Origin: Alphaproteobacteria bacterium
GTDB lineage: Bacteria; Pseudomonadota; Alphaproteobacteria; Rs-D84
Direction: 5' to 3'
Assembly (NCBI GenBank): GCA_017962125.1
Contig: JAGCVZ010000011.1
Location: forward strand, 182,255 to 246,254
DNA: 64,000 nt
Shown here piece by piece: positions 6,921 to 61,404 of this stretch. Below the pieces are notes generated by a model that was given only the letters and a program-made list of their open reading frames with translations, did not search any database and was not told where the DNA came from. The position numbers and the translations under genes are program-made. Position 1 is the first letter of the stretch, and each line of letters starts with the position of its first letter.

Positions 6921-7463
6921 ATGAAGTTAAAAACATCAATTATTCTGTGTTCTTTGGCGACCGTCATGGCAACGCCGGCGATGGCAAATTCTGTGTGGGA
7001 TTTATACGCTGGGGTATCTGTGGGTGTCGGTGCACAAACTTTGTTTGGCGACGGAAAAAATGAAACTGGAACTGCACAATCTTTTGGTGCAATGTTTGGT
7101 CTGGATGTTCCTTTGTTCCGTGGCGAAGTGGAATATACATACATTAACGAATCAGATTCACACGCAAGCATTGGTTTTGCAAACGCTTACTTTAAAATGC
7201 CGTCAACCGTTATTCGCCCTTACTTTGGATTGGGGGTCGGTGTTATGTTTAACGGCGAAGAAAACGCAAAGTACAACAAAAAATTCGACACCAAACCCGC
7301 ATACCAAGGTATGCTTGGTGTGACAATTGACGTGCCGAAATTACCGTTTAAGTTCGATGTCGAAGCACATGCAATTTATATCCCAGACGTATTGCGATTC
7401 GGTAACGAACGTCCAGATATCTTGCATTACGAAGCCAGAATAAAATTACGCTATATCTTTTAA
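6921..7463 (+). CDS. small outer-membrane beta-barrel protein (OmpW/OmpA-N-like 8-strand barrel)
   Basis: ORF 6807..7463 trimmed to the ATG at 6921, which is preceded by AAGGAG. Signal peptide MKLKTSIILCSLATVMATPAMA. Gly/aromatic strand pattern; ends ..LRYIF. Confidence 0.65.
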   Translation: MKLKTSIILCSLATVMATPAMANSVWDLYAGVSVGVGAQTLFGDGKNETGTAQSFGAMFGLDVPLFRGEVEYTYINESDSHASIGFANAYFKMPSTVIRPYFGLGVGVMFNGEENAKYNKKFDTKPAYQGMLGVTIDVPKLPFKFDVEAHAIYIPDVLRFGNERPDILHYEARIKLRYIF

Positions 7464-13259: not shown

Positions 13260-13709
13260 TTACCTTCGTTTACCGTATTGGTCTGGGAAAAAAATTCTGC
13301 CGATATACTTTCTAATAAATGGCGATGGACATTTACCGGACGCAATACATACCGGGCAATCATGCCAACTTGTCGCGACACAATCAGTGTCTTTCGAAAC
13401 ACACGACCGCATTATAATAACCATTTCATCCTTTTCCGCCTTGTTCACACTTGAATCTGGTTTCCATTCAACCGCGGGATGCAAACGATCAGGTTTTACT
13501 TCAAACGCTGTATTATCATCATAATATACAACAAACCCACAATGAAATCTGTTGCCGTCCACAGGTTTACAATTCCGCATAAGTTCAATAAATTGTTTTT
13601 GAAAATTTTCGGTAACCGCCCCAACATTTATTTGCGTAGGGCGACCACTGTAATCCGGTGTATAGCGATTATAAGTAAAGTTTTGGATGATTACAAATTT
13701 TTCTGCCAT
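13260..13709 (-). CDS. hypothetical protein (149 aa, Cys-containing)
   Basis: ATG at 13707-13709 with an AAGGAT RBS. No family recognised. Confidence 0.45.
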   Translation of the reverse strand: MAEKFVIIQNFTYNRYTPDYSGRPTQINVGAVTENFQKQFIELMRNCKPVDGNRFHCGFVVYYDDNTAFEVKPDRLHPAVEWKPDSSVNKAEKDEMVIIMRSCVSKDTDCVATSWHDCPVCIASGKCPSPFIRKYIGRIFFPDQYGKRR

Positions 13710-13842
13710 TTTTGTATCCTTTTATCACACAAGAAAGACTAGCACAATTTTCCCCAATGTCAAATATTCCGTCATAACGTCCAATGTTATAAATTCGATG
13801 ATTGAAAAAATGTTCGTATTTCAGGTAAAAACGCTTTACAAG

Positions 13843-14016
13843 AAAGAATTGTCATTGCGGATTTAGTCCGCAATAGGGTCTATAAACCTGTGACGAATAA
13901 CACAAATTTATTACGAAATATTCGTCACAACTGTTTAGCCCTATGGCGGACCACGGGTCCCACGAAAAATGAAATTTTTCGTGGGTGACACCTGCCCGCC
14001 ATGACAATTCTTTTTT
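13843..14016. repeat. ~170-bp highly structured palindromic element (nested inverted repeats), possibly a structured RNA
   Basis: Outer IR GAATTGTCATTGCGG / CCGCCATGACAATTC encloses TGTGACGAATA..TATTCGTCACA and CCCACGAAAAAT-GAA-ATTTTTCGTGGG hairpins. Lies between two minus-strand genes. Confidence 0.5.
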
Positions 14017-14070
14017 AACAAAGGATTTTACCAAACATCAAACACATTTCATCACTAAATTCAACGTCAT

Positions 14071-14679
14071 CTATAATCCACTATGGGAAAACCGTGCCTT
14101 AATATCGCGCATCATGGAATCCACGCCATGCCCGTGGACAACATAGGTATCATCGGGCAAATCGCGCGCAATCAGTTCAGAAATCGTTTTATCCAGTTCA
14201 TCGGCATTACCACCAGGCAAATCGGTGCGCCAAACGCCGTCATGAAAAATCGTATCACCACTTAGTAAAATTTTATATTCCGGAAAATAAAACATAACGC
14301 CGCCCGCCGAATGCCCTGGCGCCGCGATAATTTCCATATCTATATCACCTAAAATTTTGACAGCCCCCGCACGCAAATCATTCGGTTTAACAAAGTCATC
14401 GGCAATCCGTGGCAATCCAAAAGAATCAAGCATTTCACGTTTCCACAATATCAATGGGACATCCGCCGAATTCAGAAACCACGGCACATTATATCGACGT
14501 GAAAGTTCCGGCGCGGCGGAAATATGATCACCATGCCCATGCGTTGCATAAATCGCCCGCAGTTTCAACCCCCGCGATTCCAATAATTTTTGCCAATCAT
14601 CCGCGCGCCCCCACGCATCAAAAATAATACAATCGTCACCCGACACCACCAATACTGAATTAGTATTTTCCGGGGGCAT
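14071..14679 (-). CDS. MBL-fold metallo-hydrolase (glyoxalase II-like)
   Basis: HGHGDH and later His/Asp metal-binding motifs. The ORF extends to a GTG at about 14784, overlapping the ftsH stop, and encodes a very basic N-terminal extension. The internal ATG at 14679 is preferred, but the start is uncertain. Confidence 0.65.
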   Translation of the reverse strand: MPPENTNSVLVVSGDDCIIFDAWGRADDWQKLLESRGLKLRAIYATHGHGDHISAAPELSRRYNVPWFLNSADVPLILWKREMLDSFGLPRIADDFVKPNDLRAGAVKILGDIDMEIIAAPGHSAGGVMFYFPEYKILLSGDTIFHDGVWRTDLPGGNADELDKTISELIARDLPDDTYVVHGHGVDSMMRDIKARFSHSGL

Positions 14680-50590: not shown

Positions 50591-50620
50591 TCCCCACTGA
50601 TACGTGGGGATTTTTTTTTT
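50591..50620 (+). terminator. intrinsic terminator (TCCCCAC-TGATAC-GTGGGGA + T10)
   Basis: Hairpin plus a 10-T run 20 nt after the dsbA-like stop. Confidence 0.65.
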
Positions 50621-50652
50621 ACTTTTTATAGAAAAAGTGATATAATCAATGT

Positions 50653-51591
50653 ATGGGATTTTTAATCAAAAAAATTTTTTTAATATATACTCTTTTCGTG
50701 ACCACCGCATACGCTGATGAAAATACATTCGTGGCGGCATTACGAAACACTTATTCTTCTTGCATTGGGATTGAATCTGAACTTGCTGAATTAAAACGTA
50801 TGGCCGGAATCAATACCGCTGTAACCGGGGTTGGAACCGGTCTTGGTATTGGCGCAACAGCGGTTGGCATTGTAAAATCCAAACATGACAAAGAAATCGA
50901 AGATATTACCGCTCAACTTGATGCAATGGGTGCAACCGAAATAAAAACAGAAGAACAATTATATGATATTTTGGCCGAATTAATGGATGAAACCCAAACC
51001 CAAAAGGGTCGTGAAATGGCGGATGCGCTGCGTGCTGAAAAGAAACGTAAAGAAGAACAATCTAAAAAACTTGGCAACTGGCGTACAGGACTACTTGCAG
51101 CAAACACCGCAACAAATATTGCAGGCACAATCATCGCGACCCAAAATCGTACAGATGGAAATTTGCAAAATCAAATTGATAAATGCAAATCGGCCGTATC
51201 AAATTTGAAACAGGCCCGCGCTCAGGCACAACTTGACGGAATTGATATAAACGAAGCCACACAAATCATAAATGCCTGTGACGGATTCAATACTGTTGAT
51301 ATCTCAAAAATCAACGTGCGCGCGGATGGCGCAAAAATCGCCGGAATTGTAGGTGCAACAACGGGGCTTACCGGCACGATAACCAGTGCCGTCGCCAACA
51401 CCGATGCCACGCGCCAAGACAATACGGATTCTGGGAAACAACGTGAAAGAAACCTTAATACTGCATCCAATGTTTTGGCGGGCGCATCAACTGTCGCATC
51501 GGCAACCGCCACCGTTTTCAATGCCACACAAATCAAGGCAATTAAAGACATCGCAGATGTCGCCACAAAATGTACGGGGGCGTTAAAATGA
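50653..51591 (+). CDS. secreted T/A/G-rich helical hypothetical protein (312 aa)
   Basis: Signal peptide MGFLIKKIFLIYTLFVTTAYA. Stop overlaps the next ATG (ATGA). Confidence 0.5.
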   Translation: MGFLIKKIFLIYTLFVTTAYADENTFVAALRNTYSSCIGIESELAELKRMAGINTAVTGVGTGLGIGATAVGIVKSKHDKEIEDITAQLDAMGATEIKTEEQLYDILAELMDETQTQKGREMADALRAEKKRKEEQSKKLGNWRTGLLAANTATNIAGTIIATQNRTDGNLQNQIDKCKSAVSNLKQARAQAQLDGIDINEATQIINACDGFNTVDISKINVRADGAKIAGIVGATTGLTGTITSAVANTDATRQDNTDSGKQRERNLNTASNVLAGASTVASATATVFNATQIKAIKDIADVATKCTGALK

Positions 51592-52664
51592 AAAAAGTAT
51601 TTCTTGCTATTTTTTCTTTATTTTTATGTTTATCGGCACATGCAGATGGCGACCCACAAATCATGATATTTGAATTAAACGGCAAAGCATACTACCTAAC
51701 TGATGAAAAATTACTTGAAGCGTTGATAAAATCCGAAACCTGTATCCAGGGTGCATCCGAAGGAGAAATAGCAAAACTCTATCTTTTACTGTACGATGCT
51801 TGCAAACAAAGTATCGCCGCATTAAGCGAAGAAGCCCGCGAACAAGGAATAAATCCACATACAAGATTCAATAATTTTATGCGAAATATCGGCACAAAAA
51901 TTGCCACTTCGAATTTTGCAAAACAAATTGGACTAAGCGAAACAGATAAAGAAACCATACTTCGAACAGGACTCAAAAATTGCCTTATAACCAAAGAATC
52001 TTTAACCAAAAGGTTAACACAAAATTCAAAAATGCACCCAACCGTAACTACAAAAATTACCGCAGATATCGATAAATGCATAAGCAACATCGGAATCTTA
52101 CCCCCAATAAAAAATGATATATGTCCATTGTATCCAAGTGTCCCAGATGAAAAATATATAGAAAATATTTTTAATCTTAACGCAACATACAGTACACAAA
52201 CTTTTCATTTTCCAACCGACACACCAATTAGCACGAATAAAATCATCATCTTCAATGGTAATGTCCTTGTGGCATGTGAAAATAATATCCCAAAATATCT
52301 TGTTCGACCCACGTATTCAGGACGCGAATCTTGCCAAAACGGACAATACCAAAGCATCCCATATTCTGGCGGAACGCCGAACGGGGTTTATGTAGTCCGC
52401 GCCAAAGACAAAGACACACTATCCAAAGAAAAACAACTTGCGTGGGGGCAATACCGCATTCCACTTATACCGGCCAATGAAACCAACACTTTTGGACGCA
52501 CGAATATGTACCTGCATGGAACAACAGACCCAAACAAACATCGTTCTGGTGGGTGCATAAGTTTGGGACTCGCCATAGATGAATTCGTTGAAACAAATTT
52601 TATTGATAGCACAATCCCGATAATCGTGGATGTAGATACCGTTTACCAAGATTGGAACAATTAA
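51588..52664 (+). CDS. secreted protein with C-terminal L,D-transpeptidase-like (YkuD) domain
   Basis: ATG at 51588 (MKKVFLAIFSLFLCLSAHA). C-terminal ..NMYLHGTTDPNKHRSGGCISLG.. resembles the HGT...(S/T)xGC(I/V)R catalytic motif. N-terminal ~250 aa unassigned. Confidence 0.55.
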   Translation: MKKVFLAIFSLFLCLSAHADGDPQIMIFELNGKAYYLTDEKLLEALIKSETCIQGASEGEIAKLYLLLYDACKQSIAALSEEAREQGINPHTRFNNFMRNIGTKIATSNFAKQIGLSETDKETILRTGLKNCLITKESLTKRLTQNSKMHPTVTTKITADIDKCISNIGILPPIKNDICPLYPSVPDEKYIENIFNLNATYSTQTFHFPTDTPISTNKIIIFNGNVLVACENNIPKYLVRPTYSGRESCQNGQYQSIPYSGGTPNGVYVVRAKDKDTLSKEKQLAWGQYRIPLIPANETNTFGRTNMYLHGTTDPNKHRSGGCISLGLAIDEFVETNFIDSTIPIIVDVDTVYQDWNN

Positions 52665-52671
52665 AAAAACG

Positions 52672-52698
52672 CCCCACGAAATTCGTGGGGATTTTTTT
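52672..52698. terminator. bidirectional intrinsic terminator (CCCCACG-AAATT-CGTGGGG flanked by A/T runs)
   Basis: Lies between convergent genes (plus-strand stop at 52664, minus-strand stop at 52718). Confidence 0.6.
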
Positions 52699-52717
52699 GA
52701 TTTGGTTCATAAAAACA

Positions 52718-53419
52718 CTATCGTTCTAAGTTCTTTTGCGCCAAATTTCTGCCAGCACGTAACTGTGCCAATTCTAAAGATATTTCTTTCAAATGACGTT
52801 TATTGACTTTCATTTTATATTCCGCACTGTGATTGGAACCTTTTACTTCAGTTTTACCGCTTGGAACATAAGATACACTTTTAATAACTTCTTCACCATG
52901 GCTAACCCCCATATTGTATTCTGCCTTATACTTTGGACCAACGACCACAGAAGACTGTTCGTCTATCCACTTCAAAGCCGCTTCAAACGAAATATTGGGA
53001 TGGAGTTCTTGTATGCACCATGCATCCCTATAAATTGCATTTGCGTATTTGGTTGAATCTGATACCAAATCTTGAATACGACCATCCCAGTAACCTGGGT
53101 CAAATTTATAATTTTCGCTCCATTCTCGTATACTACGTTTACTTGGTATGGCATAAGCCCGTACATCTTCAATTATATAATTAGCAAAATCGTGTGCCCG
53201 TTTCGCCTGTCTTTCTTTCTCGACTTGTTCTAATTTTTTTTGTGCTTCTTCTTGTTCCTTAGCTTTTTTATCTGCTTTCGCCAGCCAAACAAAAGCGCAA
53301 CCAAACACAACGACCAAGAAAACACAAGTAAGGAAATTATTTCTAGCATCCTTACTATGCTTCATATTCCAAACAAACGAACGCCACTTATAATTCATTT
53401 TTTCTTTAAAATTCGCCAT
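52718..53419 (-). CDS. membrane-anchored hypothetical protein (233 aa)
   Basis: ORF 52718..53710 trimmed to the ATG at 53419 (AAGGAG RBS), because the upstream part overlaps rplI and its terminator. TM helix FLTCVFLVVVFGCAFVWLA, then a K/E-rich coiled coil. Confidence 0.5.
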   Translation of the reverse strand: MANFKEKMNYKWRSFVWNMKHSKDARNNFLTCVFLVVVFGCAFVWLAKADKKAKEQEEAQKKLEQVEKERQAKRAHDFANYIIEDVRAYAIPSKRSIREWSENYKFDPGYWDGRIQDLVSDSTKYANAIYRDAWCIQELHPNISFEAALKWIDEQSSVVVGPKYKAEYNMGVSHGEEVIKSVSYVPSGKTEVKGSNHSAEYKMKVNKRHLKEISLELAQLRAGRNLAQKNLER

Positions 53420-53500
53420 AATATGCTCCTTTTTTCTTATGACAACAACTAATATAACACCAAAAACAAAAATTGTCAAGTTTTTTGTTAAATATAACAC

Positions 53501-53575
53501 GCCCCACAATATCATGTCCCACAAAAAATGTGAAAAACATTTTTTGTGGTAAATTCCCTGTGGGGCGTAAGCATA
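53501..53575 (-). terminator. nested-hairpin terminator after rplI
   Basis: ACGCCCCACA..[CCCACAAAAAATGT-GAAAAA-ACATTTTTTGTGG]..TGTGGGGCGT, seen on both strands. Confidence 0.45.
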
Positions 53576-53588
53576 ACCAAAATCGGAA

Positions 53589-54197
53589 TTATTTTTCTTC
53601 CGCCGGTTCTGATTTTTCAGACTCCGCGGATACTTCTGTTTCTTTAACTTCCGCTTCGTCTTTTGGTTCTTCTTTGGTTTCAGTTTCTTCTTCAACCTTT
53701 TTGGTTCCAAAGGTCAAGACCTTGCCGGCGACCAACGCTTCGATTTCATCGTTTGTACGTGCGACATAAACCTTAATCGGAACAATCACATCTGGATGCA
53801 GTGCGATTTTCGTGTCAAACGCACCAATCGATTTAATCGGCGCACCCAACATAACCTGGGCCGAAGAAATATCAACATTCGCAACTTCTTTAAGTGTCCG
53901 CGCGATATCACGACTTGACACAGAACCATACAACTGACCGGTATCACCCGCCTGGCGTATCATATACATCTTGGCGTTCTTCACCGCGTCAACCTTAGAT
54001 TCTGCGGCCTTGCGTGCATTTTCATGACGCGCCTGCAGTTCCGCCTTTTGCGCTTCGAACAAAGCAACATTTTCACGCGACCAACGCAATGCCTTGTTAT
54101 TAGGCAATAAAAAGTTCCGTGCGTAACCAGTTTTAACCTCAACTGTGTCACCAATAGTCCCAAGACCTGTAATTTTTTCTGTTAAAATAACTTTCAT
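53589..54197 (-). CDS. rplI: 50S ribosomal protein L9 with ~50-aa E/K-rich C-terminal extension
   Basis: MKVILTEKITGLGTIGDTVEVKTGYARNFLLP is a canonical L9 N-terminus. The tail is ..KKVEEETETKEEPKDEAEVKETEVSAESEKSEPAEEK. Confidence 0.85.
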   Translation of the reverse strand: MKVILTEKITGLGTIGDTVEVKTGYARNFLLPNNKALRWSRENVALFEAQKAELQARHENARKAAESKVDAVKNAKMYMIRQAGDTGQLYGSVSSRDIARTLKEVANVDISSAQVMLGAPIKSIGAFDTKIALHPDVIVPIKVYVARTNDEIEALVAGKVLTFGTKKVEEETETKEEPKDEAEVKETEVSAESEKSEPAEEK

Positions 54198-57018: not shown

Positions 57019-58152
57019 ATGTTCAGATTAAATTTTCGAAGCAAACCAAATACATGGCCGGCATTCATAGACCTGTTTTCAAATTTGGTTATAATATTGA
57101 TATTTTTGCTAATCGTCTTTGTGTTTTTATGGACGACGACCAGCGTATTTAATAAACGCAACGGGGTTAAGACTATTGCGGAATTAAAACAAATGAACAT
57201 AGAACAAACTGCACAAATCAATCAAATGACCGCAGATAATGAAGAAGCCATGCGGTTATTAATTCAAGCACGTGCAGAATTGCTATCTAACCAAGACGAA
57301 TTGGACAGCAAGAATTTATCTATGATTGACATAATTACCGCATATGAAAACGAAGTATCCAAGGTAAAATCCAGTGATGATGCCGCCCGACGCGAAGTCG
57401 CAGAACTGCGCGAACAACTAGCACAAACAACTGCTATCAAAGAACAACTTGTCGAATTAGAACAACAACGCAGTATATTACAGGAAAAAATGCAAAAACA
57501 GGTAAATGTTCAACAAGAATTGATAGATGCCCAAGAATCAGAAATGGCGAAATATACGTCGGAATTAAAACGTCTAAATGCCGCGCTTACCAACGCAGAC
57601 AAAGAACTTTTAAGCCAACAGGTTAAATACATCGAAATGTCAAATAAACTAAACAAGGCGCTTGCCGACAAAGTTGCCGAATTGCAAGACATGCGCGAAT
57701 ACCAGTCTGAATTTTATCGTGCGGTAAAAATTGCACTTGGCGATACAGAATCAATAGAGGTTGATGGAGACCGCTTTATCGTGCAAAGCGACATACTATT
57801 TCCAACCGGCTCATACAAGTTATCAACCGAAGGTAAAAAACAATTACGCCTTGTATCAAATGTCATCAAAGAAATGGAAATGAAAATTCCATCAGACATT
57901 GAATGGATAATTCGTGTTGATGGTCATACTGACAATAAGCCTGTCGTTCCTGGCAATCGCGCATATTCAAATAACATGGAATTGTCATTACTGCGTGCGA
58001 CGGCGGTAGTGAACGAACTAGTGCGGGACGGCGTACAGAGCAAACGTCTTGTTCCTACGGGATTTGGCGATATGTACCCATTTGTTCCGAACACAACCAA
58101 GGCGAACATGCAGAAAAACCGTCGCATTGAATTGAAACTCACGAATAAATAG
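57019..58152 (+). CDS. MotB/OmpA-C-like peptidoglycan-binding protein with long coiled-coil linker
   Basis: 377 aa. N-terminal TM (LVIILIFLLIVFVFLW), an ~200-aa Q/E/L-rich coiled coil, and a C-terminal OmpA/MotB domain (RVDGHTDNKP..NMELSLLRATAVVNELV..NRRIEL). RBS GAGGGAG. Confidence 0.7.
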   Translation: MFRLNFRSKPNTWPAFIDLFSNLVIILIFLLIVFVFLWTTTSVFNKRNGVKTIAELKQMNIEQTAQINQMTADNEEAMRLLIQARAELLSNQDELDSKNLSMIDIITAYENEVSKVKSSDDAARREVAELREQLAQTTAIKEQLVELEQQRSILQEKMQKQVNVQQELIDAQESEMAKYTSELKRLNAALTNADKELLSQQVKYIEMSNKLNKALADKVAELQDMREYQSEFYRAVKIALGDTESIEVDGDRFIVQSDILFPTGSYKLSTEGKKQLRLVSNVIKEMEMKIPSDIEWIIRVDGHTDNKPVVPGNRAYSNNMELSLLRATAVVNELVRDGVQSKRLVPTGFGDMYPFVPNTTKANMQKNRRIELKLTNK

Positions 58153-58345
58153 TGGAAAGTGTTAGTGTAAGTGGTTAGTAATTTCTGGAATTATTTCATA
58201 ATTGTGAAATTATTCTGGAAAACAAAGTTCCCCTCTGGAAATCACCCACAAAAAATGTTGCACTTTTTTTGCGGGAACCGGTATAGGGGTGCCGCGGCAC
58301 CGCTTTGTGGTGACGGGCGGGGTGTCGCCCACTAACACTTTCCAC
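58150..58345. repeat. IR-bounded GC-rich element (MITE/REP-like), stop-motif family
   Basis: Perfect 16-bp terminal inverted repeats GTGGAAAGTGTTAGTG (58152-58167) and CACTAACACTTTCCAC (58330-58345). Left end begins with the motB-like stop TAG (TAGTGGAAAGTGTTAGTGTAAGTGGTTAGTAA). Core has GGTGCCGC-GGCACC and the AAAGTTCCCCTC block. Confidence 0.6.
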
Positions 58346-58407
58346 TCCAACACTTTTCCCTTTCCTTTTTTCATAACTTATGATAAAATGCATCAGCATA
58401 GAGAGAG

Positions 58408-60397: not shown

Positions 60398-61150
60398 ATG
60401 AAAACGAAAATGAAAATCTTTAATATTGTTGTTGGTGCAATTCTTTGTGCACTGCCGATAACATCGCATGCAACCGAAGAATGCACATTCTTTTCACCCG
60501 CCTTGGCACTGTGCAGTGTGCACGCTTATAACGTTGGTGACGCAGAAAACCCGACAGATACGGGGCGCGCAACCGATATCGAAAATGTTATCGCACTTAA
60601 ATCTACATTTATGGTGCAACAGTTAAAACAACAATACGATAAATTAAATACGGTTATCAAACGCCTTAAAACCCAACTGAACAAGGCGGTTTTAACCAGT
60701 AAAATAGAAGTCCTTACGGGCAACACATCGTCATCATCAAATTCATCATCGGGCGGGTCGAATTCGAATAATACTGTATCGATATCCGGCGCATCCGATT
60801 GTTCAACTTATTCCGGAACGGCAAACATTGCACAGTGTTTGCAACCGAACATTCAATTGATTATAAACACCGCAAATTCCGGTAAAATCACAGAAGCCCG
60901 AAATCAACTTATCAAAGATATGAACACAGCGACTACTTGGAAGTTATGTGATAAAGAACAGACTCAGACGGCATGTTGTAGCGCCATAAAAGGCAAAGAC
61001 ATAACTCAAGCCATCAAGGGTATGAATGCCGCAAATTTAATTTCTTGTGCAAATGAATTTCGCGCGGCAATTGTAATAAAGATGGAAGAAAATAATAACA
61101 AGAATCGTAATAACTATTCTGGTTGGGGTGCCAACAATAACGGTGGCTAA
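60398..61150 (+). CDS. secreted Cys-containing S/N-rich protein (250 aa)
   Basis: ATG is 4 nt after the P5 stop. Signal peptide ..ILCALPITSHA. 10 Cys. Ser-rich spacer SSSSNSSSGGSNSNN. Confidence 0.55.
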   Translation: MKTKMKIFNIVVGAILCALPITSHATEECTFFSPALALCSVHAYNVGDAENPTDTGRATDIENVIALKSTFMVQQLKQQYDKLNTVIKRLKTQLNKAVLTSKIEVLTGNTSSSSNSSSGGSNSNNTVSISGASDCSTYSGTANIAQCLQPNIQLIINTANSGKITEARNQLIKDMNTATTWKLCDKEQTQTACCSAIKGKDITQAIKGMNAANLISCANEFRAAIVIKMEENNNKNRNNYSGWGANNNGG

Positions 61151-61159
61151 CCCCCAAAT

Positions 61160-61404
61160 TTCCAAATAATTCCAGAGACTAAAGTTCCCCTCCTGCGGAG
61201 GGGTGCTGGGTAGCACCCGGCGGGGTGGTCTTTTACAAACAATTTGAAAATTCAAACGACCACCTCCCCCTTCGGGTACTCCTCCACAGGAGGAGAACTT
61301 TGCACTCTGCCCCCGCGGAGATACCGCTTTTCAACGGTATGACGATAAAAAACGGGCACAACCGCGCCCGTTTTCCATCAATCACTAACCACTAACACTC
61401 CCCA
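61160..61404. repeat. composite GC-rich structured element related to the 58150 element, ending in a stop-motif terminus at the pgk stop
   Basis: AATTCCAGAG, the AAAGTTCCCCTCC block, hairpins CCCCTCC-TGC-GGAGGGG, GGTGCT-GGGTA-GCACC, CTCCTCC-ACA-GGAGGAG and ATACCG-CTTTTCAA-CGGTAT. On the minus strand the end reads TAG-TGGGGAGTGTTAGTGGTTAGTGAT, where TAG is the pgk stop. Confidence 0.55.
61351..61375. terminator. bidirectional intrinsic terminator (AACGGGC..GCCCGTT flanked by A6/T4)
   Basis: Within the composite element. T-run follows on the minus strand after pgk. Confidence 0.45.

What the first reader, a model, noticed from the sequence alone, without database searches (positions are those of the whole stretch)
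13843..14016. ~170-bp element of nested perfect inverted repeats between two minus-strand genes: candidate structured RNA or palindromic mobile element
The outer 15-20-bp inverted repeat (AAGAAAGAATTGTCATTGCGG / CCGCCATGACAATTCTTTTTT) encloses at least three internal hairpins: ATTGCGG-ATTTAGT-CCGCAAT, TGTGACGAATA..TATTCGTCACA with AGGG/CCCT extensions, and CCCACGAAAAAT-GAA-ATTTTTCGTGGG. It is too elaborate for a simple terminator and too short for RNase P or tmRNA. 6S-like, SRP-like, or a novel sRNA are possibilities. It lies 3' of the MBL hydrolase gene and ~135 nt 5' of the 13260..13709 hypothetical gene.
Basis: seen in the sequence. Interest (0 to 1): 0.5.

Follow-up and report, generated by a model that had tools for sequence, protein, structure and literature searches.

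The report
Palindromic intergenic repeat, not an sRNA
The hairpin-rich stretch is one copy of a dispersed palindromic DNA repeat (two inverted "CGTC/TGTC-tagged" REP hairpins around a variable middle) that was inserted between two genes in this rumen-type alphaproteobacterium; it belongs to an already described class of bacterial repeats and is not a dedicated small-RNA gene.

Summary
The nested inverted repeats are real and far beyond chance (RNA fold z = -12.3, ssDNA z = -10.9). They are not a conserved RNA gene. No Rfam family matches. The closest relative has only a 57-bp spacer at this site, so the window carries about 320 bp of extra DNA (13769-14088). Homologous copies (74-89% identity) lie at other, non-orthologous intergenic sites in related rumen MAGs and metagenome contigs, in either orientation relative to transcription. 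Eleven copies share one scaffold: tag TGTC, an 8-bp stem starting AT, a 4-6-nt loop, AGGG, variable cargo, CCCT, a second inverted hairpin, and tag GACA. This matches the published CGTC-tagged REP superfamily, arranged as a head-to-head dimer with a structured spacer (Di Nocera et al. 2013), which also includes Rickettsia RPE-4/6 and Neisseria dRS3. Near-identical hairpins flank GIY-YIG nuclease genes in Bacteroidota. I found this link independently, but it is already published as the Ssn/NTS system (Chenal et al. 2025). The window's modules do not match that paper's search string, and I found no ssn gene in the DNA available. Verdict: a new family of a known kind, of modest interest.

The parts
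13769..14088 (.). Whole block of extra DNA relative to the nearest relative (about 320 bp). This is the full composite palindromic element plus short junction sequence.
   Evidence: BLAST breakpoints against L006 are window 13768 and 14089. L006 has only a 57-bp spacer between the same two genes.
13824..13860 (+). Left long arm of the palindrome, alignable outward to about 13781.
   Evidence: the repeat finder pair I1: 37 nt at 78% complementarity with 13996-14032. The homologous left flank is present in L013, L232 and L172.
13996..14032 (+). Right long arm of the palindrome, alignable outward to about 14076. Its distal part supplies the last codons and stop of the MBL gene (14071-14088).
   Evidence: MBL C-terminus comparison.
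13850..13874 (+). REP module 1 (H1): tag TGTC (13850-53), stem ATTGCGGA (13854-61), loop TTTAG, stem TCCGCAAT (13867-74).
   Evidence: Perfect 8-bp arms with a 5-nt loop (pair I10). Folds alone as ssDNA at -8.3 kcal/mol, z = -6.5. Present in all 11 copies.
13875..13942 (+). Structured spacer: AGGG (13875-78), a 60-nt cargo hairpin (13879-13938, core TGTGACGAATA...TATTCGTCACA), then CCCT (13939-42).
   Evidence: pair I2. AGGG/CCCT is invariant in all copies. The cargo varies in length (32-67 nt) and is inverted in L013, L232, L036 and L172.
13943..14006 (-). REP module 2 (H3), inverted relative to module 1. Read on the + strand: stem ATGGCGGA (13943-50), a 44-nt insertion in the loop (13951-94), stem CCCGCCAT (13995-14002), tag GACA (14003-06).
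   Evidence: Scaffold table. Other copies have a 5-nt loop here (CCAAG or CTAAA). Compensatory GG/CC to CC/GG change in L153/L018.
13959..13985 (.). Perfect 12-bp hairpin CCCACGAAAAAT-GAA-ATTTTTCGTGGG inserted in the loop of module 2. It resembles local terminator hairpins.
   Evidence: pair I4. An analogous 44-nt insert sits at the same place in L069 and L172. Similar hairpins are at window 53514-54 and 58245-75.
13844..13853 (+). Outer closing stem, 5' half (AAGAATTGTC), which pairs with 14003-14012 (GACAATTCTT). Only TTGTC/GACAA is invariant in the family.
   Evidence: helix 1: inner 5 pairs 9/9, outer 5 pairs paired in only 4-5 of 9 copies.
13735..13768 (-). Not part of the element. This is the conserved promoter-like region (TTGACA-N17-TAGTCT) of the 149-aa gene, lying immediately outside the insertion.
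   Evidence: It is conserved in L006 right up to the breakpoint.

Best explanation
The feature is one copy of a dispersed, non-coding palindromic DNA repeat. Its core is a head-to-head dimer of two CGTC/TGTC-tagged REP hairpins: an unpaired tag, an 8-bp stem beginning A-T, and a 4-5-nt loop. The hairpins are separated by a structured, variable spacer. A further hairpin is inserted in the loop of the second module, and everything is embedded in longer imperfect inverted arms. The full element is about 300 bp (13769-14088).

Shown: it arrived, or was retained, at this site only in the window's lineage. There it replaced 8 bp, including the MBL gene's stop codon, and gave that gene a new 5-codon tail.

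Inferred: the element acts at the DNA level. On single-stranded DNA during replication, repair or uptake, each strand presents one correctly oriented tagged hairpin. Hairpins of this class are the specific binding and cleavage sites of small stand-alone GIY-YIG nucleases, the Ssn family, whose genes are themselves bracketed by such hairpins (NTS-ssnA-NTS, resembling an insertion sequence). I infer, with moderate confidence, that spread and rearrangement of this family depend on such a hairpin-specific ssDNA enzyme acting in trans, together with recombination between the inverted modules. That recombination would explain the flipped cargo.

Also inferred: because the element sits between an upstream stop codon and the next promoter, it is co-transcribed with ftsH-MBL. 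Its last hairpin plus the T-rich tract probably helps terminate or stabilise that mRNA as a side effect.
For: (1) Indel at the orthologous site. L006, whose 149-aa protein is 93% identical, has a 57-bp spacer. The window has about 320 bp extra with clean breakpoints. Five relatives end the MBL protein at ...R(F/L) plus 0-2 residues, while the window alone has ...RFSHSGL*.

(2) Dispersed family. Homologs at 74-89% identity occur in L013 and L069 (MAG RUG13256), L018 and L120 (RUG14636), L036 (Alphaproteobacteria MAG RGIG8185), and metagenome contigs L153 (two copies), L172, L232 and L236. L013 is syntenic with window 47.8-59 kb but carries its copy between the orthologs of window 53552 and 50618.

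(3) All copies are intergenic, and 7 of 10 loci are between same-direction genes. Orientation relative to transcription is mixed.

(4) Eleven copies share one scaffold. The local-hairpin model gives 87.4% of cells paired, 4 pairs with compensatory changes, and a covariation score reached by 0 of 500 shuffles. The long-range model gives 77.0%, and 132 of 500 shuffles reach its score.

(5) The tag, stem, loop, dimer type, spacer and location match the published definition of CGTC-tagged REPs (PMC3733652).

(6) The same stem (CGTCATTGCGGG...CCCGCAAT) forms a perfect 31-bp terminal inverted repeat around a GIY-YIG gene in L113 (Pfam E = 1.1e-16). Of its 120 best homologs, 93 have C-terminal tails that are literal translations of that hairpin (DCGSSPQ* or IAGQARND). 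The enzymology comes from PMC11893778: ssDNA-specific cleavage next to the hairpin, with no activity on RNA or dsDNA.

(7) No Rfam match.

(8) A terminator-like hairpin plus T-tract is flagged on the mRNA strand at 13875-13853.
Against: Only one bona fide tagged hairpin pair exists in the 64-kb window, and none in 75 kb from the closest relatives. High copy number in this particular genome is therefore unproven.

No target-site duplication is visible at the junctions. L006 differs by an 8-bp replacement, not a clean insertion. The region is also an indel hot spot in other relatives, so differential loss cannot be strictly excluded.

The modules do not match the published SRM search string. They have A, not the C reported as critical for SsnA binding, immediately 3' of the palindrome.

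No Ssn-like ORF was found in the window or any related locus.

Transposition by Ssn has not been demonstrated for any member of the class (PMC11893778 discussion). The window copy's own minimum-energy fold uses long-range pairing, not the two local hairpins.
Confidence: 0.8

Rival explanations
1. It is a strand-specific structured small RNA or cis-regulatory RNA gene (6S-like, SRP-like or novel), transcribed from its own promoter and ending at the T-run at 14011-14016.
For: The predicted structure is very stable. There is a possible TTGAAA...TAAAAA promoter at 13802-13831 and a T-run after the closing stem on the + strand (read from the sequence). One G-U pair favours the + strand.
Against: No Rfam family matches. 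The element is absent at the orthologous locus in the nearest relative and in four others. Copies sit at unrelated loci in both orientations relative to neighbouring genes. Both strands fold about equally well. The central part is interchangeable and invertible between copies. The promoter scan did not report that site.
Confidence: 0.05
2. It is a classical MITE: a deletion derivative of an insertion sequence, mobilised by a DDE transposase that recognises the long terminal inverted repeats.
For: Long imperfect terminal inverted arms are present: 37 nt at 78% in the window, and a clearer TGTAGATGTTACyAAATTyGAT repeat in L013 and L232. There is presence/absence polymorphism. The size of about 300 bp is typical.
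Against: No target-site duplication is seen. No transposase-bearing parent with these ends appears in any of about 1.9 Mb of fetched loci. There is no match in plasmids or phages. The best-conserved parts are the internal tagged hairpins, not the termini. The outer arms are missing from most copies.
Confidence: 0.08
3. It is a REPIN: a REP doublet mobilised by a RAYT (IS200/IS605-type Y1 transposase).
For: It has the same overall architecture as REPINs, namely two inverted REP hairpins with a spacer that can fold into one long hairpin (PMC3116915 abstract).
Against: The tag is TGTC/CGTC, not GTAG. Di Nocera et al. found no tyrosine transposase gene flanked by CGTC repeats (PMC3733652). No RAYT-like ORF lies next to modules in the module-rich loci I inspected. 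The gene found bracketed by these hairpins is a GIY-YIG nuclease.
Confidence: 0.05
4. Whatever its origin, the copy is now maintained because it serves as the terminator and 3'-end stabiliser of the ftsH-MBL transcript and insulates the downstream promoter.
For: Its position lies exactly between a stop codon and the next gene's conserved promoter. A terminator-like hairpin plus T-rich tract is on the mRNA strand. Copies are preferentially located downstream of ORFs between same-direction genes, as reported for the class (PMC3733652). The sequence is 100% identical in five independent strain-level assemblies.
Against: Close relatives manage with a 57-bp spacer and no element. The 100% identity reflects near-clonal strains whose flanks are also identical. 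Mixed orientation among copies argues against a strand-specific selected RNA role.
Confidence: 0.3

Closest known systems
CGTC-tagged REPs, head-to-head dimers (Di Nocera, De Gregorio & Rocco 2013, BMC Genomics 14:522)
   Same: It has an unpaired terminal tag, in the TGTC variant that the paper explicitly allows. It has an 8-bp stem starting with complementary A-T and a 4-5-nt loop. The tags face outward, making an HH dimer. The spacer falls in the 20-100 bp range and has complementary ends and an internal stem-loop. It is located downstream of ORFs between same-direction genes. The hosts are alphaproteobacterial.
   Different: The tail after the palindrome is AGGG rather than the CCA-like consensus. 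One module carries a 44-nt hairpin inserted in its loop. The dimer is embedded in an additional arm of about 60-75 bp on each side. The family is from uncultured rumen-type Alphaproteobacteria that the paper did not survey. Copy number in this genome is unknown and appears low.
NTS / SRM hairpins and the Ssn GIY-YIG ssDNA nucleases (Chenal et al. 2025, Nat Commun 16:2388)
   Same: It is the same kind of (C/T)GTCAT-tagged hairpin. Its stem is nearly identical to the hairpins that bracket Ssn-type GIY-YIG genes in Bacteroidota (L113: CGTCATTGCGGGCTTGACCCGCAAT).
   Different: It does not match the published SRM degenerate string. It has A instead of C directly 3' of the palindrome. No ssn gene was found in the DNA available for this organism or its relatives. 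The role in natural transformation shown for Neisseria is untested here.
Neisseria NIMEs (dRS3-flanked mosaic units), E. coli BIMEs and Rickettsia RPE-4/RPE-6
   Same: These are intergenic mosaics in which short tagged palindromes bracket variable segments. According to PMC3733652, dRS3 and RPE-4/-6 are CGTC-class members. Like RPEs, this copy contributes a few codons to a gene's end.
   Different: I did not test direct sequence similarity to these families. RPEs are often in frame inside genes, whereas here only the last 5 codons of MBL are affected. BIMEs use GTAG-type REPs.
REPINs / RAYT system (Bertels & Rainey 2011)
   Same: It is a doublet of inverted REP hairpins able to fold into one long hairpin. 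It is non-autonomous and shows presence/absence polymorphism between relatives.
   Different: It has a different tag class and no associated Y1 transposase.

Membership tests
CGTC-tagged REP superfamily (PMC3733652) | An unpaired terminal tetranucleotide CGTC, with TGTC or CCTC allowed. | tested here: met
   TGTC at 13850-53 and GACA at 14003-06. TGTC is present in all 11 copies.
CGTC-tagged REP superfamily (PMC3733652) | A stem of 8-9 bp whose first two positions are complementary A and T. | tested here: met
   ATTGCGGA/TCCGCAAT is 8/8 (pair I10). Module 2, ATGGCGGA/CCCGCCAT, is 7/8.
CGTC-tagged REP superfamily (PMC3733652) | A loop of 4-5 nt. | tested here: met
   Module 1 has loop TTTAG. 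Family loops are GCAG, GTAG, CCAAG and CTAAA. The exception is module 2 of the window, L069 and L172, which has a 44-nt insertion in the loop.
CGTC-tagged REP superfamily (PMC3733652) | A short unpaired tail, mostly CCA-like. | tested here: not met
   The tail is AGGG in every copy. It pairs with CCCT across the spacer.
CGTC-tagged REP superfamily (PMC3733652) | Predominantly head-to-head dimers (tags outside) with spacers of 20-100 bp, often structured. | tested here: met
   Tags face outward. The spacer at 13875-13942 is 68 bp with complementary ends and a stem-loop. The definition was read.
CGTC-tagged REP superfamily (PMC3733652) | Many dispersed copies per genome. | tested here: inconclusive
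   There is one dimer in the 64-kb window and none in 75 kb of the closest relatives. RUG13256 has two full elements plus other tagged hairpins in 16 kb. Whole genomes could not be scanned.
CGTC-tagged REP superfamily (PMC3733652) | Intergenic location, mostly downstream of ORFs between unidirectional or convergent genes. | tested here: met
   10 of 10 loci are intergenic and 7 are between same-direction genes.
Ssn-related motif (SRM/NTS) with Ssn nuclease (PMC11893778) | A match to the SRM search string HGTCWYN(0-2)YYVSBRHN(0-5)WNVSBRGN(0-2)RNCYNB. | tested here: not met
   There are 0 hits in the window. Neither module matches. The control NTS matches. The L113 hairpin, which does flank an Ssn-type gene, also fails the string.
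Ssn-related motif (SRM/NTS) with Ssn nuclease (PMC11893778) | A cd10448-type GIY-YIG (ssn) gene in the same genome, typically flanked by the motif. | tested here: inconclusive
   A profile of 120 homologs searched against six-frame ORFs of the window and all loci hit only L113, L090 and L147 (plus a weak hit in L219), none of them relatives of the window. Only a small fraction of each genome was available.
Ssn-related motif (SRM/NTS) with Ssn nuclease (PMC11893778) | The same hairpin type as those physically attached to Ssn-type genes. | tested here: met
   The L113 terminal inverted repeat CGTCATTGCGGGCTTGACCCGCAAT compares with the window's TGTCATTGCGGATTTAGTCCGCAAT. Of 120 homologs, 93 read through this hairpin.
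Ssn-related motif (SRM/NTS) with Ssn nuclease (PMC11893778) | Binding and cleavage by the nuclease as ssDNA, with a cytosine directly 3' of the palindrome being critical. | not testable with these tools
   Position 13875 is A, not C, as read from the sequence. Testing this needs biochemistry.
REPIN/RAYT | A GTAG-tagged REP and a flanked Y1 transposase gene. | tested here: not met
   The tag is TGTC. No RAYT-like ORF lies next to the modules.
MITE (IS-derived) | Terminal inverted repeats plus a target-site duplication, and a parent IS with the same ends. | tested here: not met
   Imperfect inverted arms are present, but there is no duplication at the filled versus empty site and no parent IS in the fetched DNA.
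Known structured RNAs (Rfam 15: 6S, SRP, tmRNA, RNase P, sRNAs) | A covariance-model match, and conservation at the orthologous locus. | tested here: not met
   There are no hits at gathering thresholds and only noise at E <= 10. The element is absent from the orthologous spacer in L006-L011.
Rickettsia RPE / Neisseria dRS3-NIME | Sequence membership in those named families. | not tested
   The relation is inferred only through their published assignment to the CGTC class.

The most novel reading that the evidence does not exclude
This composite could be an active non-autonomous element. Its parts are a TGTC-tagged REP dimer, an invertible structured cargo, a loop-inserted hairpin and long outer arms. 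It would be moved by an Ssn-type GIY-YIG ssDNA nuclease whose recognition motif lies outside the published SRM definition. If so, the filled versus empty site pair (window versus L006) and the flipped cargo would be comparative evidence that CGTC-class REP dimers really transpose and recombine. [quoted passage not shown]
Probability: 0.2. Interest if true: 0.55.

Novelty: new member of a known kind. Interest (0 to 1): 0.27.

Why it matters
For annotation, this should be labelled a repeat (a REP dimer or mosaic element), not an sRNA gene. The last five codons of the MBL hydrolase are repeat-derived.

More broadly, the family extends CGTC-tagged REPs to uncultured rumen and gut Alphaproteobacteria. 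It also shows that the published SRM search string misses real members, including the abundant Bacteroidota hairpin that is fused to most Ssn-type genes I sampled. Censuses of the Ssn/SRM system are therefore probably underestimates.

The clean filled and empty sites, and the cargo inversions, offer material for studying how these repeats move and rearrange.

Tried and rejected
Rfam at permissive thresholds returned only noise: plant miRNA models that match any long hairpin.

A within-window BLAST found no second sequence copy. The short motif CCCACRAAAAA is not enriched (11 matches against 8.4 expected).

My public-collection scans used a 16-mer (AGAATTGTCATKGCGG). That is too short for 596 Gb, where about 550 chance hits are expected. 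They were rescued only by BLASTing the whole element against the 240 fetched loci, so the copy census is incomplete and biased towards copies with that exact 16-mer.

My first hairpin regex tested only one loop length and missed the family. It was fixed.

In one search four locus names were shadowed by alignment labels. One search holds the valid counts.

I briefly regarded the GIY-YIG association as a possible new finding. A literature search showed it was published in 2025.

Searches of plasmid and phage collections found nothing.

I looked for remnants of the PP-binding gene, which other relatives carry at this site, inside the 320 bp and found none.

I looked for a target-site duplication and found none.

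Full report
**1. The observation**

- ATTGCGGA/TCCGCAAT is 8/8 with a 5-nt loop.
- A 23-nt arm pair around TGTGACGAATA...TATTCGTCACA has AGGG/CCCT ends.
- CCCACGAAAAAT-GAA-ATTTTTCGTGGG is a perfect 12-bp hairpin.
- The outer arms have one G-T position and one mismatch.

The palindrome is larger than reported. The arms are 37 nt at 78% complementarity (13824-60 / 13996-14032) and can be aligned out to about 13781/14076.

Folding is far beyond chance. As RNA the + strand gives -91.8 kcal/mol (z = -12.3) and the - strand gives z = -9.5. As ssDNA it gives z = -10.9. The near-equal stability of the two strands was the first hint of a DNA-level palindrome.

**2. Not a known RNA and not conserved in place**

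Rfam 15 gives no match at gathering thresholds anywhere near the element and only noise at E <= 10.

The flanking 149-aa protein has a ladder of homologs from 93% to 46% identity, which let me fetch orthologous loci. The five strain-level contigs are 100% identical and so uninformative. The nearest relative, L006 (93% protein identity), has only 57 bp between the MBL-fold hydrolase gene and the 149-aa gene.

BLAST breakpoints show the window carries about 320 bp of extra DNA, 13769-14088. The next gene's promoter-like region (TTGACA...TAGTCT) is conserved immediately outside it. More distant relatives carry one or two extra genes at this spot, so it is an indel hot spot.

All five relatives end the MBL protein at ...R(F/L) plus 0-2 residues. 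Only the window has ...RFSHSGL*, encoded by the extra DNA. The insertion is therefore the derived state, and it rewrote the end of the gene.

**3. A dispersed family**

BLASTing the full element against the 240 fetched loci nevertheless found true homologs at 74-89% identity over 100-170 bp:
- L013 and L069 (rumen MAG RUG13256)
- L018 and L120 (RUG14636)
- L036 (Alphaproteobacteria MAG from buffalo rumen)
- metagenome contigs L153 (two copies in a 535-bp tandem duplication), L172, L232 and L236

L013 is syntenic with window 47.8-59 kb at 75-93% identity, yet holds its copy between the orthologs of window 53552 and 50618, where the window has no copy.

Every copy is intergenic, and 7 of 10 loci lie between same-direction genes, after a stop codon and before the next promoter. 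Relative to transcription, the TGCGG module comes first in five loci and last in three. That argues against a strand-specific RNA.

**4. Anatomy**

Eleven copies share one scaffold. In order it is:
- a closing stem, (AAGAA)TTGTC
- tag TGTC
- an 8-bp stem, ATTGCGG(A/C), with a 4-6-nt loop and its complement
- AGGG, then cargo of 32-67 nt, then CCCT
- an inverted second hairpin, ATGGCGGA or ATCCCGGA, with a 5-nt loop or a 44-nt inserted hairpin, and its complement
- tag GACA, followed by (ATTCTT)

In window coordinates these parts are:

| Part | Coordinates |
|---|---|
| Tag TGTC | 13850-53 |
| Module 1 (H1) | 13854-74 |
| AGGG | 13875-78 |
| Cargo | 13879-13938 |
| CCCT | 13939-42 |
| Module 2 (H3) | 13943-14002, with a 44-nt insert at 13951-94 |
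| Tag GACA | 14003-06 |

Pair counting on the cargo-stripped alignment compared two foldings.

| Model | Cells paired | Pairs with double changes | Covariation score | Shuffles reaching it |
|---|---|---|---|---|
| Two local hairpins | 87.4% | 4 | 0.070 | 0 of 500 |
| Long-range pairing | 77.0% | 1 | 0.015 | 132 of 500 |

The sample is small and some copies are related, so this is supportive rather than conclusive. Only TTGTC/GACAA of the outer stem is invariant.

The cargo is interchangeable. Other tagged hairpins such as TTGTCATTCTGAAC...GTTCAGAA appear in some copies. The cargo is inverted relative to the modules in L013, L232, L036 and L172.

**5. What class it is**

The hairpin module turned out to be cross-phylum in the loci I had taken for chance hits. 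It occurs in Ca. Symbiothrix, Chitinophagaceae, Ramlibacter, Polaromonas, Kapabacteria, a deltaproteobacterium and Rhizobiales, usually as inverted doublets.

The literature identifies it. Di Nocera et al. 2013 (PMC3733652) define CGTC-tagged REPs as follows:
- tag CGTC, often TGTC or CCTC
- stems of 8-9 bp starting with complementary A-T
- loops of 4-5 nt
- predominance in alpha-Proteobacteria
- mostly head-to-head dimers (tags outside) with structured spacers of 20-100 bp
- location downstream of ORFs between unidirectional or convergent genes

Rickettsia RPE-4/-6 and Neisseria dRS3 are members. The window element meets all of these except the CCA-like tail, which is AGGG here. High copy number could not be assessed.

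**6. The partner enzyme**

In L113 two such hairpins form a perfect 31-bp terminal inverted repeat around a 119-aa GIY-YIG gene (Pfam E = 1.1e-16). Of its 120 best homologs, 93 have C-terminal tails that are translations of ATTGCGGGTCAAGCCCGCAATGAC in two frames, DCGSSPQ* or IAGQARND.

This association is already published. Chenal et al. 2025 (PMC11893778) describe the Ssn family (cd10448) and the NTS-ssnA-NTS architecture. They report site-specific cleavage of ssDNA next to the hairpin, with no activity on RNA or dsDNA. They also show an effect on natural transformation in N. meningitidis, and they leave transposition as a hypothesis.

Their SRM search string matches the NTS control. It does not match the window's modules or the L113 hairpin. 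No Ssn-like ORF occurs in the window or in any related locus I hold, but that is only a small part of each genome.

**7. Mechanism and confidence**

Shown:
- It is a dispersed palindromic repeat.
- It is absent from the nearest relative's orthologous site.
- It has CGTC-REP dimer anatomy.
- It altered the MBL C-terminus.

Inferred:
- It acts as ssDNA hairpins recognised by an Ssn-type nuclease that may also spread it.
- Recombination between the inverted modules flips the cargo.
- It is passively transcribed and probably helps terminate or stabilise the ftsH-MBL mRNA. A terminator-like hairpin plus T-tract lies on the mRNA strand.

I give about 0.8 to the identification as a REP-dimer repeat. 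Within that, I give roughly 0.35-0.45 to the involvement of Ssn in this organism.

**8. Novelty**

The class, its dimer organisation and its GIY-YIG partner are all known. What appears undescribed is this particular family in uncultured rumen-type Alphaproteobacteria. Its distinctive features are the AGGG/CCCT-bounded invertible cargo, the loop insertion and the long outer arms. There are no matches in plasmid or phage collections. It is best filed as a new member of a known kind, of modest interest.

Noticed in passing
window 58151-58346: There is a second nested palindrome of similar design: a perfect 17-bp outer stem (AGTGGAAAGTGTTAGTG) with 162 nt between the arms and several inner hairpins, including CCCACAAAAAATGT...ACTTTTTTTGCGGG. 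It lies between an OmpA/MotB-like gene and a 661-aa gene. RNA fold z = -5.6 on the + strand and -4.2 on the - strand. Its left part is 81% conserved at the orthologous place in RUG14636 (L018 4908-4985), which is higher than the adjacent gene at 73%. A 40-nt piece recurs at a non-orthologous site in L069. It has no GTCAT tag and is probably a different repeat family.
   Followed up: partly
window 61150-61310: This is another short palindromic repeat. It matches L069 5688-5769 and L036 2356-2388 in both orientations.
   Followed up: no
window 50618-53552: About 2.9 kb, holding ORFs 50653-51591, 51570-52664 and part of 52718-53710, is replaced in RUG13256 by about 0.9 kb that carries the repeat element plus an unrelated 155-aa gene. 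It is an indel hot spot bounded by hairpins at 52663-52710 and 53514-53554.
   Followed up: partly
window 13260-13709 (- strand): The 149-aa protein downstream of the element has no Pfam domain and only 23 database homologs, all from metagenomes. It is cysteine-rich near the C-terminus. Relatives insert a PP-binding (acyl-carrier-like) gene of about 214 aa and other small ORFs between it and the MBL gene.
   Followed up: no
L113 1827-2245 (Ca. Symbiothrix dinenymphae): A GIY-YIG (Ssn-type) gene is bracketed by a perfect 31-bp inverted repeat, CGTCATTGCGGGCTTGACCCGCAATCCCCTG. The ORF's last 7 codons and its stop codon are the hairpin itself.
   Followed up: yes
P0024-P0143 (homologs of the L113 GIY-YIG protein): 93 of 120 have tails DCGSSPQ* or IAGQARND, which are translations of the same hairpin in two frames. 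Several carry tandem ARND repeats. The published SRM search string does not match this hairpin, so SRM censuses probably undercount Bacteroidota.
   Followed up: partly
L153 2360-3160: A 535-bp tandem duplication contains a complete copy of the repeat in each unit. The same locus type in RUG14636 (L018) has a single copy.
   Followed up: no
L232 3895-3935; L120 5780-5830: Miniature units lie adjacent to full copies. Each has a tagged hairpin half, a short or foreign insert, and then the other half (for example TTGTCATTGCGG-ATTTAGT-CCGCAA-CCGCCATGACAA). This suggests nested insertion or deletion within the modules.
   Followed up: no
L013 4340-4360, L236 3851-3871, L172 2107-2128, L232 6541-6606: Other CGTC-type hairpins (GTCATACCGCC..., GTCATCCCGGC...) coexist with the family in the rumen alphaproteobacterial contigs. 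These genomes therefore host several REP types, whereas the window's closest relatives (L006-L011) show none.
   Followed up: no
window 7301-7325 (- strand): This is the only other hit of the relaxed tagged-hairpin census: TGTC ACACCAAG CATAC CTTGGTAT, with one mismatch. It is probably a chance match.
   Followed up: no
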